DNA of 64,000 nucleotides, from NCBI RefSeq assembly GCF_964194155.1, contig NC_135896.1:28768001-28832000 (forward strand), written 5' to 3'. This document shows, piece by piece, positions 4,135 through 63,789 of the stretch (position 1 is its first letter; each line of letters opens with the position of its first letter). The notes below the pieces were generated by a model. That model saw only the letters and a program-made list of their open reading frames with translations. It had not been told where the DNA came from and ran no database searches. This stretch comes from Cetorhinus maximus. Lineage: Eukaryota. The translations under genes were made by a program, and so were the position numbers.

Positions 4135-4470
4135 ATCTGTAAATACTGAAAATTTGAAACAAAAGAAAACATAAGATTCTGAAAACACTCAGCAGGTCAA
4201 GCAGCAAAAGGTTAAAAAAAGTTAACATTTCAGCTGCAGAAACAGAGAATGTGGAGCCATAGATGCTGCCTGACCTGCTGAATATTTCCAGCATTTTCTG
4301 TTTTTATTTCAGGTTTCTAGCATTCCGCTTAACATTTCAGGGACTGTGTAAATCCTTCGTCAAAAACCAGGTAATGCCTGGGAAAGTTACATTTCTTTTC
4401 CCCCACAATGCTGCCTGACCTGCTATTTTCTATTTCCAGTATTTTCTGACTCTGTTTCAGATTTCCAGCC
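4135..4470. mobile_element. Decayed PLE family 2 3'-end fragments in both orientations
   Basis: actcagcaggtcaagcagc (-) and gatgctgcctgacctgctg...tttcag(g/a)tt(t/c)(t/c)agc (+, twice) match 28520-28599, 39996-40097 and 60850-60980. Confidence 0.65.
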
Positions 4471-5318: not shown

Positions 5319-7089
5319 TAAAAAGTGCCCAATCCATTATGAAAAAAAAAATCGCGCATCCGTACAGTATGAATTCCGCTCGTTGCTCCGGCGTCCCGTT
5401 ATCCGGCTGTATGCACTGGGAAAGCAAAATGTAACCTCGAGTCTACAAATCTGGTTAGTTCCTTTGCACTTTAAATTAACTACTTCATGTACGTCAAAAA
5501 TTCAACCGCGCAGATTCTGGAATTTATGAAGGGTCCATATTTGATTCACCCCCCCCCCCCCCTCCCCTCAAATTCTTCACCTAACTAGATAAATTGTTTA
5601 TTTGGCCCTGGAATGTTGGAAACAATATATCGTTCATAAAGGCATTTTATTTCTGTCATGCAAAAGAATTTCTTGATTTGAGCTCCCCATCTTCTCTACA
5701 AGTGTAATTAATTTGAATTAAGTTGCTTCCATAAAAAAGATACTTAAAGCCGTCATGTTTATTATTTGCTGCGATTGTTGGGATAATAATGCATTCACAG
5801 TTAATTGAATGAATTGATCCATGCTGCAGGTTGAGATTGTATTTAGGCTTATAAAATGTAACTTGTTTGTTACATTGTACAGCGCCCGACATATTCCAAA
5901 TAATTCGGAATTATATTTTGAGGCGACGGGTGTTTTGTTTTAATCTGAATTGGACAACACTGTACAGTGCACTTTGTGATCCTGAATGCCCAACTCCTAA
6001 CAGGTAACCGTTGATTGTGATCGTATGGATCTGCAACTTTGAAAGCCCTCACTGGAACGGCTCCCAAAACTAAATAAAACCAGCTCTTTTTTTTATCGGC
6101 AGAGAATAACTCATCCTCGGGCGGTTGCTGCTGTCCTTTTGTACATGCGGATGGTTTGTGTTACGGGAGCGTTTTATAGAACCCAAGCAGCGGAACCCAG
6201 GCCATTGTTTAATAAATAAAAGTGCATTCCCCTTGGAAGCTGCGGTACAGTTAGTCAGAAAAATCATAACATGTATAATTTATCAGATGTAGTAATCCAC
6301 TTTTTAGATTCCGTGGTGCGTGGCTCTCTTTGTGTGGAAGGATGGCTCTTGACTCCAAATTACAAAGGTTAAATCTTACAAACGACAGATGGACTGCCAT
6401 TCACCGTCCTTTGAGTCAGAGGATATGAAGTGAAAGATTTAGCTGTTCAATTGATTTCCGGAAAGACTTTTGGGCAGAGCATGAAAATGGATATGATGCC
6501 GGGTATTTTGAGCTGATTGTTAAATCATTGCTATATATATGCTATATACATATGTGTGTGTGTGTTTAACATAGCGTATTCAATTGTAACAAAATTGCCA
6601 TTATGTGTAAATTGAAATTCCAGAACAAACACCATTGTCGAACTGATTTAAATTCAATCATTTCAAACTGTTACATAATGTGATCAGTGGGGGTAAGAAA
6701 CGGATGATATGGATGTGTACCTCGAGGGGAATGGACAGGGGTGAATTACAAGGATGTAATTTTATCCCAGGGATATTAATGACGTCCTGAATTATGTAAT
6801 TGAAGCTTGACGAGTTTGTAATTGCTATTTGAACCCAGAGACTGGCAGGTATCCTTGAACTTGATCCTGGCATTTATTTTGAAAAATATCTAGTTTTGTA
6901 TGGTACTTTCTTGCTGGTGGCAGTTGCTATTGGCGCTCCATGTGGGCTCAGTGATACATTAAAGAGACGGAAATGCTTTGAGCTCTTAAAGGCATTTGCG
7001 CAATAGGGTTTGATGCATGGGGCACACTCAGAGAATATTTCCACTTGTGGGGACATCCAAAACCACAGTTCGTAAATATAAGTTAGTTA

Positions 7090-7340
7090 CAAAAAACAAT
7101 AGAGAATTCAAGAGACATCTCATTACCCAAGTGTAGTAAAAGTACGGAACACACTTGTACACGGTGTAATTGAGGCAAATAGCATGGGTACATTTAATGG
7201 GAAGCTAGATAAACATGAGAGGAAAAGGAGTAGCAGGATACACTGCTAGTTAGGTGAAGAAGGTTGGACACTTGTTTGGAACATATTCACTAGGTGGACA
7301 AGTTGGGTTTAATGGGCTGTCCATGTATCTATATGTAACT
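7090..7340 (+). mobile_element. Old CR1-type LINE 3' fragment
   Basis: Degenerate match to the CR1 3' region (...catttaatgggaagctagataaacatg...). Confidence 0.5.
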
Positions 7341-7799
7341 ATCCATACTTCAACGTGAGTTGACTGAACAGACCATCTTCAGTGTCACTGTGAAGTCATT
7401 CCTGCTCTACGGCAATGCTGAAAATGGCTTGTATACAGGATGGCTGGTAAATTGATTCAGTCTCTAGATCTACTGTCTAACCAAGACACCTGGTGGTGTC
7501 AGACGCAAATTGCAGTACGGCTGGAAAGGGCTCCTACGGCTTGGCTTGGATTTTGGAAATGTTCATGTGAGTGGGGCCTCCAAACCCAAAATAAACTGAG
7601 GGCAATTTTCTGCAGTTTCCTAATGGAGCATCAACGTTTTCCAATAAAAGACATTTAGATGTATTACATTCTGCAACGAAATGGCCGAGAGTATTAATGC
7701 TGGTAATATTACTCTTGGATAGCAGGGAAATTGGGACCCTATGGCTCAGTATGAAAAGACTGAAGGAGAGTAAAGGGGTTGTAGAATAAATGTTTAATG

Positions 7800-28430: not shown

Positions 28431-28467
28431 CCTCACTCACTGCTAGTTTAAGGGACATCACCATTCA

Positions 28468-28599
28468 TTCTGATGAAGAGCCATACGGACTCGAAATGTC
28501 AATTGTGTTCCTCTCCGCAGATGCTGTCAGACCTGCTGAGTTTTTCCAGCTATTTTTGTTTTTGTTTCAGATTTCCAGCATCCACAGTATTTTGCTTTT
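28468..28599 (+). mobile_element. 132-bp PLE family 2 mini-insertion carrying a minimal hammerhead motif (~28467-28503)
   Basis: TSD ATCACCATTCA (28457-28467, 28600-28610). att-CTGATGA-A-GAGCC ATACG GACTC-GAAA-TG-TC-aat. Confidence 0.8.
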
Positions 28600-30607
28600 A
28601 TCACCATTCACTCTCTCACTAACACCGCCATTGTCCTCATCCTGTCCATAGGACTACTCACTACCCATACAGGCCAGGCATACTTATCATTTAGCCTGGC
28701 AGGCATCTTGCTTAAACTATCTCCATCTCTATCTGTGCAGGACAAGCTGGCACACAACGAGAGAGAGGTTGCAGACCGGTGGCGGAATGCCCAAAGTCAA
28801 GATCCTCACGGACTTTGAAAACAGCTATCCAGCTGGCAGACTATGATCTGGACCATTCCTGTGCTGACAGTGAGGTCGGCACTGCTCTATCAAGTGAGGA
28901 TCCAGCAGTGCAATATCCATCAGACAACCATGCTGTGAGTGATGTATCCTGTTTCAAAGGCCACTGCCATGCACTAATTATCTCTCCTTTCACAAGCATA
29001 TCTACCAAACAGCCGACAGTCCATGACTCGGGGCCTCCAATCAAGCCCCAAAGAAACCTCTGGAGAGGAATCTGGAGGCACCCTCCCTGAAGTCCCATCA
29101 CAGCGCTCACCGACACCCTCCACCAGCGCAGAGACATGCACCTCAGTGGCACCTAGCTTTAGAGCAGCCCCAGGATCACAATCTGGTGAGCGCATCACAC
29201 TGTCTGATCCACAACAGGAGGCGGCAGGGACTTCCCAGGTCCCCAGAACTCAGAGGACTGCTGGAGGCCAGAACGTAGCTGAGTCCGAGTCAGATGACGA
29301 GCCTCTGGACTCGGTCAGGCCACAGTTGCTGGAGCTGCAAAGGCAAGCTTGGGAACATCAGGAAGGGATGTCCGCTGCATTCCTCAGATTGCAAGGCATG
29401 ATGGAGGAGGCTGTACGCCTTCAGGCTGAGGTGATAGTACCGGCATGCCAACGCACCAACACTGGTAGGGTGGTGGCCGCCATGGAGACCTTGGTGCAGG
29501 ACTTCGCTCCTGCATTGCTGCACGGGCTCAACTACATTGCTGATGTCATAGTTGGCCTCCAACAGTGTGTGTGCGAGAGGGGTGCCGGGCAGCTTGCAAG
29601 GAGTCAGCCTGGGTACCCATAGGGAGGAGGATCAGCAGGTGAACACTCCAGGCCCATCCATCCAGGTGACTCCGGGAGTGTCCAGCCAATCCGACTCTAC
29701 TCTTCCTGTGACCTCAGCAGCTCCAGCTCCACAGGCTGAGGAGGGTGCCACTACAACACAGCATGACCCTGAAAGCAGGCAGGGGCCCTTCGTCTCTGCC
29801 CTTCAGAGGACACCTGCCAAAGTCATCACAGACAGAACATCACAGTCAGCAGGCTGCCTCCACCTCCGCTGTGGATGTCCAGAGAGCAACAATATGTAGC
29901 GGCAGGGTTAGGAAGGTTAGGGAGAATTAGCTGCACAGCCTGGGCACGGGTGTTAATCATGTGTACATACTGTTCACTAATGTCAATAAATTCCCAAGAA
30001 TGTCTCCCTGTCTATGGCTCTTTGTTCTGATGAGCAGTGTTCTTGTCACTCAGATGTGAAACCTTTCTGCACAAGATAAAGGCAGGTGTCTCAGTCCAGG
30101 GCCTCTTCCCCGTGTTCTTGGCATCCTTCAAACTAAAATGATTGTCGGCCTTACCTCGGCAGGCCTGTCATTGCTGCCAGAATGTAGTGGGCAGGTGCCA
30201 CAGAGTTCTCTCATTCTCTCGATATGCTCTCAGCACCATTAAGGAGGGGCTGTCCCCCATCTCTTTAGCATCTGTGACCACTGATGCTGTGCTCCAGCTC
30301 CTGAAGGGCTATGGTGCTGAAGTTGGACACAGCATCAGAACTTCTAAAGTTTCATGGCTGCGTCTATATGATAAGACCCTGATCACGGAGGGCAAGCGAG
30401 CTGCCCTCGGCCAGATAGGAGTCAAACGTTCTCAGAGGCTGTGTGAAGAGCTACGGAGTGTCCTCACTGCATGTCATCATCCTCCTGCAATCGAGCAATT
30501 ATTAGGGCCTCCACTGCATCTCCATGCCAGGAGCATTCTCACAGAGGGCCATAAGCCAGACTGGAGTCAAATGTTCACAAATGCAATGTATGATCTATGG
30601 GGTCACC

Positions 30608-33630: not shown

Positions 33631-34809
33631 TACTGTGGTAAATTAAATTATGTACCTGAATTAGGAGGAGTAGACTATATATTGAAGATGGCACCGTGGT
33701 GATTTGGTGGGTGGGGTGGAATTCACAAGATTTCTGCCTTTCGAATGCTACAAACAGTCTGTGCGCTGCAGTTTTATAGCTTGTCTGTTTGTAACTCCGT
33801 GAAGTGATTTACATACGAACACACAAATATATGAATTAGGAACAGGAGTAGCCATTTGGCTCCTTGACCCTGCTCTGCCATTTGATAAGATCATGGCTGA
33901 ACTGATTATGACATCAACTTTCCCGTCTATTCCCTATATCATTTGAGTCCCTTGTCAATCAAGAATCTATCAACTCAGTCTTGAAAATATCCACTTCCAC
34001 TGATCTCTGGGGAAGAGAATTCCACAGACTAACGACCCTCCAAGAAAAAAATTCTCCTTCTCCCCATCTTAAATGGGAGACCCCTTATTTTTAAACTGTC
34101 CCCCTAATTCTAGTGTCCCCCATAAGGGGAAACATCCTTTCAACATCCACCCTGTCAAGTCCCCTCAGTATCTTTATACGTTTCAATAAGAACGCCTCAC
34201 ATTCTTCTAAACTCCAATGGATACGGGAACAACCTATCCAATGTTTCCTCATGAGATAACCCTTTCATCCAGGAATCAGTTGAGTGAAGCTTCTCTGAAC
34301 TGCTTCTAATTATATCCTTTCTTAAGTAAGAAGACCAAAACTGTACACAGTACTCCATATGGGTGATCTTGCCAGCAACGGCAGCAAAACCTCCCTACTT
34401 TTATATTCTATTCCCCCTTGCAATAAACAACATTCCATTTGCCTTCCTAATCACTTTCTGTTCCTGGATGCTACCTTTTTGTCAATCATGTACCAGGGCA
34501 CCCAATTCCCTCTGTACTCCAGATTTCTGCAATCTCTCTCCATTTAAATAATATGTTGTTTTATTATTGTTCCTGCCAAGGGCAATCTCATATTTTCCCA
34601 CTTTATACTCCATCTGCCAAATTTTGCCCACTCACTTAACCTATCGATATCCTTTTGAGACTCCTTATGCCCTCTTCACAAATTCTTTGTGCCATCAGCA
34701 AATTTAGCAATCATACATTCGGTCCCTTCATCCAAGTCATTGATATAGATTGTAAATAAAAAGTTGTTTGGTAGTACAGAACTTGAGTATTGCTGAAAAA
34801 AGACACATG

Positions 34810-34845
34810 TTGTTGAAGCTTTTTGTCCTGCACTCATCAGGACAA
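34810..34845 (-). ncRNA. Minimal type-I hammerhead motif (PLE family 1), G12->A
   Basis: Minus strand: TTGTC-CTGATGA-GT GCAGG AC-AAAA-AGCT-TC-AACAA. Confidence 0.65.
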
Positions 34846-36046
34846 TTTGCAAGAGTACTAAATGTGAAGAGAACAACAATTTATACTTTGAGAAGAGAGT
34901 GTTGATTGTTTGGCAAGTGAACTCGGATTGGTAGAGGTGTTGCCATGGGGAATGCACCAGTTAACTAATGGCTGACAGTTAACTGCCAAGCTTTCTTTGA
35001 CTTCAAGCCAGGCAGGTTGACTGATTGGTCAAGGCATTGCCCTGTGGAATGATCCAGAATGGCTGTCGCCTATCTTGTTTAGTTGAAACAGGTGTAATCT
35101 GTGTACATGTTCTTTCTGTCTGCAAAGAATTGGGCCCTGTGATTTAATATATGTGGCTTCCAGCCCATGTAAGTACGCCATACTGCGAGTCGACTGAATT
35201 GATTGTCAGCGTAATTCTTAACATACTCAGGATTGTTTACAAATGTTGTCCACTGGCAGAATCACATTTAATGTTGGACACTGTGTTTTGAGTTTTACAC
35301 GTGCCTTGCTTGTTGCGAACAGCTCAAGGGACGTGCTGTTTGATACGATCACACCAACACTGAAATTTACAAACCATATTACTCATTTGTCTAATAGGCA
35401 GAACGCCTTTTTGGCTTGATGGCCAAATGAGTAATATGGTATATGAATTTCAGTGCCAGTGTGAGGCTAAGTATTTATTTAGGTTGTATGTCCCAAAGGC
35501 TGGGGGGATTGTATTAAACAGCATGTCCCTTCGGCTGTTCGCAACAGGCAAGGTACCCAACCAACCTGTGCATGCAAAATTCAAAACATACAGTCCAACA
35601 TTGGAGGTGATTCCATGATTGGATAACATTTGCTAAACAATCCTGAATGTGCTAAGGATTACACTGACAACCAATTTAAGATTATCAGTCGGGCTCGCAA
35701 TGTGGCTCACTTACATGTGCTAGAAGCTACATATATTAATACATAGGGCCCTGTTCTTTGCAGACAGAAAGAACACGTGCACACATTGTGCCTGTTTCAG
35801 CTAAACAAAATAAGTGACAGCCATTCTCTGGTTCATTTTCCAGGGCAAGGCCTTAAACAATCAGAGTCAACCTGCCTGGTTTGAATTTAAACATAACTAA
35901 TTGATGAATTGACAGTGATCAGTTAACAGGTGCATTCTCCATGGCAACACCTCTACCAATCATAGTCCACTTGCCAACCAATCAGCACTCTCTCTTGTTA
36001 TAAAGCATAAATTGTTATTCCCTTTACATTTAGTAGTCTTATGAAC

Positions 36047-36080
36047 TGTCCTGATAAGTACAAGACGAAAAGCTTTGACA
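36047..36080 (+). ncRNA. Minimal type-I hammerhead motif (PLE family 1), G8->A
   Basis: TGTC-CTGATAA-GT ACAAG AC-GAAA-AGCT-TT-GACA. Confidence 0.65.
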
Positions 36081-36329
36081 ATACATGTCTCTTTTCAGCA
36101 ATACTCAAGACTGTAAATAGTTGAGGCCCCAACACTGACCCCTTTTTGATTTCTCTTTGCAATTCTTAAAAAAAAAGCTGGTTGGAATTCATAAAATTTA
36201 TCCAAATTGCGCCTGAGCAGGTGTAACTTTTCACTTTGTTATGTATATATTAAAGCTGAACTCCAGTTAGCAAAAGCTGTACTTTTTACACCATTCGTGA
36301 ATGGCATCGATCCACATGCAAACATTAAA

Positions 36330-39964: not shown

Positions 39965-40420
39965 ATATAGGTTTAGATAAGATAGACAAAGATAAAACAA
40001 AAACAGAATTACCTGGAAAAACTCAGCAGGTCTGGCAGCATCGGCGGAGAAGAAAAGAGTTGACGTTTCGAGTCCTCATGACCCTTCAGCAGAACTGGAT
40101 AGACAAAGATAAGCTGTTTCCATTAGCTGATTGTCTAGGTTCTTGTACCCAGATTTATGATTTGGGGCAAGAGATGCAGGGGGAATGTAAGGAAATACCT
40201 TTTTTATGCAGTAATAGTAATGATCTGGAACTCTGTCTGAGGCTGGTGGAAGCAGAGACAATGAATGATTTGAAAAGGAAATTTGATGGGCACTTGAAGG
40301 AAATGAACTTGCAGGGTTACGAGAATGAAATGGGGGAATGGGACTGATTGCGTTTTTCTATAGAGAGCTGGCATGGACTCAAGGGGCAGAATGGCCTCCT
40401 TTGTCATTTATGATTCTACA
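39965..40420 (+). mobile_element. CR1-type LINE 3' fragment hosting the 102-bp PLE insertion
   Basis: 'GLDKIDKDK..LFPL', followed by a CR1 3' UTR. Confidence 0.75.
39996..40097 (-). mobile_element. 102-bp PLE family 2 mini-insertion carrying a minimal hammerhead motif (40058-40096)
   Basis: Perfect 15-bp TSD GATAGACAAAGATAA (39981-39995, 40098-40112). Minus strand: AGTT-CTGCTGA-A-GGGTC ATGAG GACTC-GAAA-CG-TC-AACT. Confidence 0.85.
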
Positions 40421-60420: not shown

Positions 60421-60847
60421 TTTTCTTTCTACCATGCTTATCCATACATAAAAATGGAAGGGAGGAGGTGGCTTTAGGAAATGGTAAGCAGGAAAATAAA
60501 AGGCAGAAAGGGAAATAGCCTGTGGAGCAGAATGGCGTCAGTAGTGTCAGAAGCGGGGGGAAGGGACTGGAAGCAGGAAGAGCTGATGGAGAGGAGATCC
60601 ACAGAAAAAATGGCACGAAGATTGGGAGCAGTATGTAGAGCAAAACTGTTGAGAAGAGGGGCCAAAACAGAATGACTGGCTGTTAATGTGTTGGATGCAT
60701 GGGAAAACAGGTAAAAGATGGAGGGGGAGAAATTCTTTTGCACGACATAACAATGAAGAAAGAAGGTAGTGTCCTTGGTGCCAATTGCCCTAATGCCAGC
60801 CTGCTAGAAGCAGTGCTAAATGAACAAACTTCTCCCCTGGAGTTAAT

Positions 60848-61420
60848 AGAAGCAAAATACTGCAGATGCTGGAGATCTGAAATAAAAAGGTGCTGTGAAA
60901 ACTCAACGGGTTGCGCAGCATCTGTGGTGAGAGAAACAGAGTTAACATTTCAAATCCAATATGGCTCCTCTTTGGAACTGAAGAGAGGTAGAAATGTAAT
61001 TGGTTTTATGCTGTTGAAAAAGGGGGGAGGGTCAGGTGGAGCAAAAAGGGATGGTCAATGTTAGGTTAGAGGACGGGGAGGTTAAATTACAAAAATGTCA
61101 TGGAGCCAAAGGCAAAGGGAGTGGGAATGGTAGTAGTAAAGGAACAAAGAATTGGCCGAGAGAAGGTGTTAATAGCAAAATAAAGGTCAGTGCTGTCTGA
61201 AATCAAAACATGAGAACAATATACAGACTGGAACTAGGGGAGAAAATACAAAATGGAGGACAGAGTTCATGGTCTGAAGTTGTTGAACTCAATGTTGAGT
61301 TCAGAAGGCTGCAAAGTGCCTAATTGGAAGATGAGATGCTGTTCCTCCAGCTTGCATTGGGCTCTCCCCTCCTGTTGTCCAGTTAGGCTGGAGGGATTTG
61401 CAAATAGCTGACATTCAGTT
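60848..61420 (-). mobile_element. PLE family 2 3' part: GIY-YIG C-terminus and pLTR with decayed hammerhead (60940-60979)
   Basis: 'AQCKLEEQHLIFQLGTLQPSELNIEFNNFR*'. Downstream: AGTT-CCAAAGA-G-GAGCC ATATT GGATTT-GAAA-TG-TT-AACT, then the same tail as 28520-28599. Confidence 0.8.
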
Positions 61421-63320: not shown

Positions 63321-63789
63321 TTGAGATTAACTTAGGTCCATCTTGCACATTTATCCATTTTGACTTTCTTATTTCTAATAACTCTAAACCCCATTAGTTA
63401 ACCCGAACCTAAATGTTAGTAACAGACTAACATTTATTCTTAAGCAGCTATATCCTGGCCTTCTCTGTCCAGGGGAAGTATTCCCAGTACCTAGAGGTTC
63501 TCTTTTTTAATTATGGTTTCCCATCTCTACCGTAATCTTAGTGACTACTCTGTAGGCTCGCCATGACTTTACTGTTCTTTCTATAACTCGACAACCAAAA
63601 TTGCACATATTACTCTTAACTGTGGCCAAACCAAGGTTCTTGTTTCAGATTTCCAGCATGCCCAGTATTTTATTTTAGGTTAGTACAAATCTATTACTAC
63701 TACTTACTCTTAATAATGCAGAACCCCATTAATAAAATCTAAAACGCTGTTAGCATTTTAATGGCTTAAGCATTGTGCACTAATTCCAG

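What the first reader, a model, noticed from the sequence alone, without database searches (positions are those of the whole stretch)
39981..40112. Candidate 'ribozyme-first' mini-retroelement: 102 bp, perfect 15-bp TSD, starts at a hammerhead motif
Seen: the insert 39996-40097 (-) is flanked by GATAGACAAAGATAA on both sides and keeps its CpGs, so it is young. Its first ~40 nt fold as a minimal type-I hammerhead: stem I AGUU/AACU, core CUGCUGA-A, stem II GGGUC/GACUC, GAAA, palindromic ACGU stem III, GUC cleavage triplet. The 5' end is only 5 nt before core C3. Established: PLE pLTRs carry such minimal hammerheads, which are thought to act as dimers. Inference: a second independent insertion (28468-28599) also starts 2 nt before the core. 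Together they suggest a non-autonomous PLE-mobilised short element, or a programmed RT stop at the ribozyme, that spreads an UNcleaved ribozyme cassette. The A6->C core variant is also notable.
Basis: partly seen in the sequence, partly recalled or inferred. Interest (0 to 1): 0.75.

Follow-up and report, generated by a model that had tools for sequence, protein, structure and literature searches.

The report
Leader-only Penelope copies starting at hammerhead
This 102-base insert is a young stub of a very common Penelope-type jumping gene, not a separate mini-element, but such stubs begin far more often than chance right at the built-in self-cutting RNA motif, which likely marks where the jumping gene's RNA starts and may offer a way to test what that motif does.

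Summary
In detail: a 102-bp insert with an exact 15-bp duplication, inside an old LINE. It is 100% identical to the last 102 nt (hammerhead plus short tail) of an abundant Neptune-type Penelope-like element (47,852 exact copies of a 3' motif). It is not its own family: short copies share the long copies' subfamily variants, and no two share a 5' flank. The predicted 5'-end peak is real: 41 of 96 solo copies start within 8 nt at helix I, and the stop rate there is about 9-fold higher in an unselected sample. A TATA-like box sits 30 nt before an initiator-like motif at that spot. The best reading is a run-off cDNA of the transcript's 5' leader after internal priming (inferred; no RNA start data). 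Sister subfamilies with the canonical A6 core start there much more often (42 of 49) than U6/G6 ones (6 of 23), but few independent lineages stand behind this. The lone motif is not predicted to fold or cut well. Earlier notes of this scan saw the boundary, the promoter motifs and A6C on other DNA.

The parts
39996..40097 (-). Insert: last 102 nt of a Neptune-type Penelope-like element, positions -5 to +96 counted from hammerhead core C3
   Evidence: 98-100% identical to the ends of long copies
40098..40112 (.). 15-bp target-site duplication at the insert's 5' end (blunt junction)
39981..39995 (.). 15-bp target-site duplication at the insert's 3' end
40058..40096 (-). Minimal type I hammerhead motif: helix I 40096-40093 with 40061-40058, core 40092-40086 (C at position 6 = 40089), helix II 40084-40080 with 40074-40070, GAAA 40069-40066, predicted cut 40062/40061
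   Evidence: sequence; activity untested
40091..40097 (-). Remainder of the initiator-like motif; the predicted transcription start is the A at 40096 (position -4). The TATA-like box 30 nt upstream in the parent is not in the insert
   Evidence: inferred
39996..40003 (-). Short-tail 3' end, the first of two preferred end zones (about 6-16 and 41-60 nt past the 3' motif); likely a reverse-transcription start site
   Evidence: analogy to PMC11167929
39950..40300 (+). Older LINE-like fragment into which the insert landed (limits approximate)
   Evidence: paralogues L317, L007, L281 show the uninterrupted site
28468..28599 (+). Second, independent short copy from a sister subfamily: canonical A6 core, starts at -2, long tail, 11-bp duplication (28457-28467, 28600-28610)

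Best explanation
The insert is the hammerhead-plus-tail end of an abundant Neptune-type Penelope-like element, likely copied by the element's own enzyme from the 5' leader of its RNA, so that its 5' end would mark the transcription start. Shown: the parent unit reads hammerhead, tail, leader, ORF (reverse transcriptase and GIY-YIG nuclease), 3' UTR, then hammerhead and tail again; 5' ends pile up at -6 to +1; a TATA-like box and an initiator-like motif frame that spot. Inferred: the pseudo-LTR promoter starts RNA at about -4, the first base of helix I. The nuclease nicks the target, the RT primes internally at a tail site about 100 or 140 nt into the RNA, and runs off the RNA's 5' end or is trimmed a few bases to a microhomology. 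The stub lacks the TATA-like box and has no partner hammerhead, so it is probably a dead end.
For: Parent: L031 has an RT (PF00078, E 2.6e-6, just below the curated cut-off) and GIY-YIG (PF01541, above cut-off); an ATG at +171 opens at least 500 codons in L317. Peak: 41 of 96 solo copies at -6..+1, against a maximum of 26 in any 8-nt window in 20,000 uniform draws; 38 of 156 inverted arms; in the unselected 94 copies, 16 stops in 554 nt at risk against 25 in 7,585 (8.8-fold). In raw DNA reads of another sample, depth is flat at 6,400-7,450 from -36 to -6, then 13,785 at +2, and three of the listed strand-switch joints lie at -6..-1. The TATA-like 8-mer at -34..-27 and the 5 bases at -5..-1 are invariant in 76 long copies while the spacer varies. 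A sister family keeps the same spacing with a different spacer, and one subfamily has a canonical TATA box 31 nt before the A. Junctions starting at -6..-4 have no microhomology (0 of 6), those at -3..+1 mostly do (11 of 15), as expected at a hard template end. Two end zones 30-45 nt apart match the two internal RT start sites of the anole element, whose product length was set by the RNA's 5' end in vitro (PMC11167929, main text). Weak hint: contigs of two guessed-RNA runs of a related organism step 9-fold and 22-fold across -6 to +2, against 5-fold in its DNA run.
Against: No raw RNA reads were available, and contigs cannot show a start. Extra bases at the -6..-4 junctions are not a consistent cap-type G (1 of 5). 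The left edge is not sharp: 4 solo ends at -6, 3 at -8, 3 at -11/-12. Of 15 near-full copies whose upstream repeat reaches the hammerhead, only 2 start at the boundary and 11 run past -100, so longer templates or a template jump are needed. In D. virilis Penelope the start lies 46 nt before a 75-nt intron (PMC2377424, passages) whose end meets helix I (PMC4209133), and the shark spacer also reads as a 3' splice site. Part of the raw-read step comes from sister families whose spacer differs from the reference. Arms of inverted pairs are not independent events.
Confidence: 0.6

Rival explanations
1. The boundary is a stop or resolution site on a long RNA: bound protein, RNA structure or the element's nuclease ends cDNA at helix I.
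For: The stop fraction is similar at the upstream repeat of near-full copies (2 of 15) and at the 3' repeat (16 of 75). Most near-full copies show templates that run through the site.
Against: An RT moving 3' to 5' meets the hammerhead's 3' side first, yet the main peak is at its 5' side. No stable fold is predicted with its base at -5 (z +0.26). The conserved TATA-like/initiator-like spacing is left unexplained.
Confidence: 0.2
2. The boundary is a 3' splice site (pyrimidine tract, then YAG before -2), and the short copies come from spliced RNA or a splicing intermediate.
For: The sequence fits in two families. Ends cluster at -3 and -2. In D. virilis Penelope the intron end coincides with helix I (PMC4209133).
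Against: None of 41 peak copies continues into element sequence that could be a first exon; three short matches were examined or are incidental, and L304 is a nested insertion in another copy's UTR. Many ends lie upstream of -2 (-4 to -6). A lariat would stop the RT at the branch point, not at -2 (established knowledge, recalled).
Confidence: 0.1
3. An independent SINE-like or retrozyme-like mini-element family that begets further minis.
For: In A6 subfamilies most core-bearing copies are short (42 of 49). One locus (L122) has three head-to-tail units of about 97 nt.
Against: Short copies have the same variants as long copies, and 34 of 41 are as close or closer to a long copy. 5' ends spread over 8 nt, and no two share a flank. 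The stub lacks the TATA-like box. A6 subfamilies also have long copies.
Confidence: 0.07
4. Ordinary random 5' truncation with no preferred site.
For: 5' truncation is typical of these elements (PMC8557442, passages); 52 of 94 unselected copies run past -40.
Against: An 8.8-fold local excess, repeated in sister families and in raw reads.
Confidence: 0.03

Closest known systems
Endonuclease-positive Penelope-like elements, Neptune type (PMC8557442, PMC3846280; passages seen)
   Same: RT then C-terminal GIY-YIG with a Cys-rich linker, partial-tandem pseudo-LTRs, inverted 5'-truncated partners, optional 30-40 nt tail, duplications of about 7-16 bp, microhomology junctions; TATA- and initiator-like motifs were noted in a rotifer pLTR.
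   Different: A discrete class of leader-only copies starting at helix I was not found described in the papers and searches used here.
[quoted passage not shown]
   Same: Short helix I, extra base between positions 9 and 10.1, G10.1-C11.1 pair, palindromic helix III; mostly found as lone motifs in truncated copies.
   Different: Core position 6 is C or U throughout this family.
Poseidon element of the green anole, PAc (Frangieh et al. 2024, PMC11167929; main text read)
   Same: Two internal end zones a tail-length apart; the hammerhead is copied uncut.
   Different: There the ORF starts inside the hammerhead; here the first long ORF starts at +171. No 5'-end peak was reported in the text read.
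Non-LTR retrozymes (PMC7761336 passages; bioRxiv 10.64898/2026.07.22.740005 parts 1-3)
   Same: Short, non-coding, hammerhead-bearing, related to PLE pLTRs.
   Different: Retrozymes are defined by tandem units; this is a single unit with a target-site duplication, identical to the end of the autonomous element.
A6C hammerhead of phage Bcep176 (Perreault et al. 2011, PMC3088659; passages)
   Same: Same core change; low but detectable activity there (below 0.1 per minute).
   Different: Here it is fixed in a young, expanding retroelement family with thousands of copies.

Membership tests
EN+ Penelope-like element, Neptune type (parent) | Single ORF with RT followed by C-terminal GIY-YIG | tested here: met
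   (RT just under the curated cut-off, GIY-YIG above it); DKG and YIDD motifs visible
EN+ Penelope-like element, Neptune type (parent) | CX2-5CxxC linker between RT and nuclease | tested here: met
   CX4CxxC in the L031 translation; pattern from PMC8557442
EN+ Penelope-like element, Neptune type (parent) | Partial-tandem pLTR, inverted truncated partner, optional tail, hammerhead in the pLTR | tested here: met
EN+ Penelope-like element, Neptune type (parent) | Placement in the Neptune clade by RT phylogeny | not tested
   no reference PLE proteins were fetched
Minimal type I hammerhead of PLEs | Helices I and II pair and tolerate only pair-keeping changes | tested here: met
   94.7% of 264 cells paired, helix II 99%, one pair changes on both sides (4 of 22 rows, possibly one event); slid controls 18-44%
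Minimal type I hammerhead of PLEs | Canonical core with A at position 6 | tested here: not met
   C in the insert; A in 2 of 222 cores; A in sister subfamilies
Minimal type I hammerhead of PLEs | Extra base after position 9, G10.1-C11.1, palindromic helix III | tested here: met
Minimal type I hammerhead of PLEs | Self-cleavage, as a dimer or with protein help | not testable with these tools
   model energies do not favour it: monomer probability 0.04; active dimer -11.3 against -22.5 kcal/mol for the best dimer fold
Non-LTR retrozyme | Two or more tandem units each with a hammerhead | tested here: not met
   single unit here; one tandem locus (L122) among 271 truncated copies
Non-LTR retrozyme | Circular RNA in vivo | not testable with these tools
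   no raw RNA reads offered
Independent non-autonomous (SINE-like) family | Own fixed 5' end and own diagnostic variants or clade | tested here: not met

The most novel reading that the evidence does not exclude
The stubs are integrated 'strong-stop' cDNAs. The RT primes in the 5' leader, runs to the RNA start at helix I and normally jumps to the repeated hammerhead region at the RNA's 3' end, which regenerates the pseudo-LTR and promoter. An active hammerhead cuts the tail off the 3' repeat and forces this route, so canonical-core subfamilies leave mostly stubs (42 of 49), while A6C/U subfamilies have slowed their ribozyme and leave mostly long copies (about 21-26% stubs). The share of stubs would then be a genomic read-out of hammerhead activity in vivo and would explain how pseudo-LTRs are regenerated.
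Probability: 0.2. Interest if true: 0.75.

Novelty: new variant of a known kind. Interest (0 to 1): 0.42.

Why it matters
The insert itself is a dead stub. But the role of minimal hammerheads in Penelope-like elements is described as unknown (PMC7761336, passages), and so is how pseudo-LTRs are regenerated (PMC2377424, passages). A sharp, countable 5' boundary at helix I, whose use differs about three-fold between canonical-core and variant-core subfamilies, gives a direct test of both questions with 5' RACE and the existing in vitro system.

Tried and rejected
DNA search of the genome with the whole insert found nothing because common words are skipped. Rfam gave no hit. Empty site in relatives or other individuals: contigs of four runs did not cover the unique flanks, so no verdict; the paralogous empty site stands in. 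A peak at the cleavage site: 9 of 25 solo ends between +13 and +67 fall at +30..+36 (p 0.003, window chosen after seeing the data, T-run ambiguity), but only 1 is at +31, inverted arms show 5 of 71, and the A6-rich listing shows no peak by eye; not established. Spliced or back-spliced copies: none among 41 peak copies. Cap-derived G: not seen. Thermodynamic support for the hammerhead fold: none. In one search the apparent ends at -45 to -72 were artefacts of a variable C-run and were counted as long copies. One search compared two copies of the parent protein and added nothing. Lunse et al. 2017 on PLE hammerhead dimers was not held; only its title was seen, and it may describe A6 variants.

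Full report
Observation. The 102-bp insert at 39996-40097 lies between two exact copies of a 15-mer. The flanks belong to an older LINE-like fragment, and paralogues such as L317 run through the site with a single copy of that position. This is a motif match: the minimum-energy folds differ and are no better than shuffles, the hammerhead-shaped monomer has probability 0.04, and Rfam has no hit. Positions below count from core C3 = 0; the insert spans -5 to +96.

What it belongs to. The 36-nt core has 2,802 exact copies and a 21-nt 3' motif has 47,852 in the 4.0-Gb genome; reversed controls gave 0. Most copies continue upstream into a 3' UTR and an ORF with RT, a CX4CxxC linker and GIY-YIG, a Neptune-type Penelope-like element by the features in PMC8557442 (passages); no tree was built. 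Thirty near-full copies give the unit: hammerhead, tail, leader, ORF, 3' UTR, then hammerhead and tail again, with an ATG at +171 opening at least 500 codons. The insert is 100% identical to the ends of several long copies, so it is young.

The 5'-end test. I took 94 copies unselected for their 5' end (first motif hits on C1) and copies enriched for truncation by masks at -34..-29. Of the 300 rows that these three searches listed, I fetched the first 90 as loci and 100 further regions in list order. This gave 352 motif copies, 271 ending after -40: 98 solo, 165 arms of inverted insertions, 8 with direct element sequence upstream. Of the 96 solo ends between -28 and +67, 41 fall at -6..+1, mode -3/-2; the largest 8-nt window in 20,000 uniform draws was 26. 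Inverted arms: 38 of 156. In the unselected set the stop rate is 16 in 554 nt at risk against 25 in 7,585, 8.8-fold; 14 of the 16 are inverted arms and 2 are solo, and 52 of 94 run past -40. Raw DNA reads of another sample of the same species show flat depth from -36 to -6 and a 1.85-fold rise by +2, with strand-switch joints at -6..-1; sister families with other spacers inflate this step. Duplications of solo copies are 7-16 bp, mode 13-14, found in 58 of 98 (the 7-bp ones may be chance); tails fall in two groups about 35 nt apart.

Not a separate family. Short copies carry the same subfamily variants as long ones; for 41 peak copies the nearest neighbour was a long copy in 14, tied in 20, another short copy in 7. 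No two share a 5' flank and none continues into a possible first exon. One locus (L122) has three head-to-tail units.

Why the ends stop there. In 76 long copies a TATA-like 8-mer at -34..-27 and the five bases before the core are invariant while the spacer varies. The A at -4 sits in a match to the initiator consensus (consensus recalled, not from a call). A sister family keeps the spacing with a different spacer, and one subfamily has a canonical TATA box 31 nt before the A. Junctions at -6..-4 have extra bases or are blunt (0 of 6 microhomology); those at -3..+1 mostly use microhomology (11 of 15); those at +2 or later 7 of 19. In vitro, the anole element primes internally at two sites and its product length follows the RNA's 5' end; uncut RNA is the main template (PMC11167929, main text). 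TATA- and initiator-like motifs were noted in a rotifer pLTR (PMC3846280, passages). Contigs of two guessed-RNA runs of a related organism step 9- and 22-fold across the site against 5-fold in DNA, a weak hint only. Against this reading: no RNA start data, no cap-type G, a shoulder to -8, 11 of 15 near-full copies whose upstream repeat runs past -100, and the D. virilis layout, in which an intron ends at helix I and the start is further upstream (PMC4209133 parts 1-2; PMC2377424 part 1 and passages).

The hammerhead. Across 22 haplotypes, 94.7% of cells pair; helix II has one U-A to C-G change (4 rows, possibly one event) and one pair with three states. Position 6 is A in only 2 of 222 cores around this family. 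A6C is known and slow in a phage hammerhead (PMC3088659, passages). Sister subfamilies with A6 exist (2,341 matches). By script on 72 cores, 42 of 49 A6 copies start at -7..+1 against 6 of 23 U6/G6 copies (Fisher p 1e-6); this set includes paired arms and favours intact cores. By eye, a listing not selected on the core gave about 40 boundary against 29 long copies in an A6-rich family, against 16 and 59 in the insert's own family. The difference rests on few independent lineages and may reflect age, promoter strength or RT processivity. A peak at the cut site is not established (see Tried and rejected).

Mechanism. Shown: parent identity, the duplication, the boundary peak, conserved promoter-like spacing, the core variants. 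Inferred: transcription from about -4, internal priming in the leader, run-off and joining (0.6). Speculative: a jump from the RNA's 5' end to the 3' repeat, and hammerhead cutting that raises the share of stubs (0.2). A programmed stop (0.2), a splice boundary (0.1), an independent mini family (0.07) and random truncation (0.03) are the rivals to the inferred step.

Novelty. Minimal hammerheads in truncated PLE copies, tails, inversions and PLE-derived retrozymes are in print (PMC4209133; PMC8557442; PMC7761336 and PMC6155905, passages; bioRxiv 10.64898/2026.07.22.740005, parts 1-3 of 5). A 5'-end peak at helix I, or its link to position 6, did not turn up in nine searches. Subscription papers are missing from the library, Lunse et al. 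2017 was not held, and no supplements were read; supplementary figure S2 of PMC11167929 plots genomic copy ends and may bear on this. Earlier notes of this scan saw the boundary, the promoter motifs and A6C on other DNA; I had written the same reading before looking. The object is ordinary; the quantified boundary and the core link are a modest, testable addition.

Noticed in passing
L114 (C1:4871000-4875000) and L042 (C1:3021900-3028500): Internally deleted units in which the leader or ORF start is joined directly to the 3' UTR; present in both arms of an inverted insertion in L114, so a deleted RNA was itself mobilised. These are better candidates for non-autonomous derivatives than the stubs.
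   Followed up: partly
L122 (C1:12480649-12483771): One insertion with an inverted arm and three head-to-tail units of about 97 nt, each starting near -2 to -4, inside one target-site duplication; looks like repeated template jumping or a retrozyme seed.
   Followed up: partly
L369, L378, L379, L388, L393 and other rows: In the subfamily whose helix I begins with a 4-base palindrome, many inverted insertions join exactly on that palindrome at -4..-1, which suggests two cDNA ends annealing there.
   Followed up: no
inverted pairs: The two arms of an inverted insertion usually have one long and one short tail.
   Followed up: partly
parent element, +79 to about +215 (L317): A 5' splice-site-like motif after the hammerhead and a 3' splice-site-like motif in the leader could define an intron that removes the tail and the +171 ATG; the donor-like motif is absent in the A6 subfamilies.
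   Followed up: no
window 60846-60970 (-), 4166-4469, 63636-63674: Older, decayed ends of related Penelope-like elements.
   Followed up: no
window 34782-36109: Long inverted repeat (73% identity) of LINE-like sequence.
   Followed up: no
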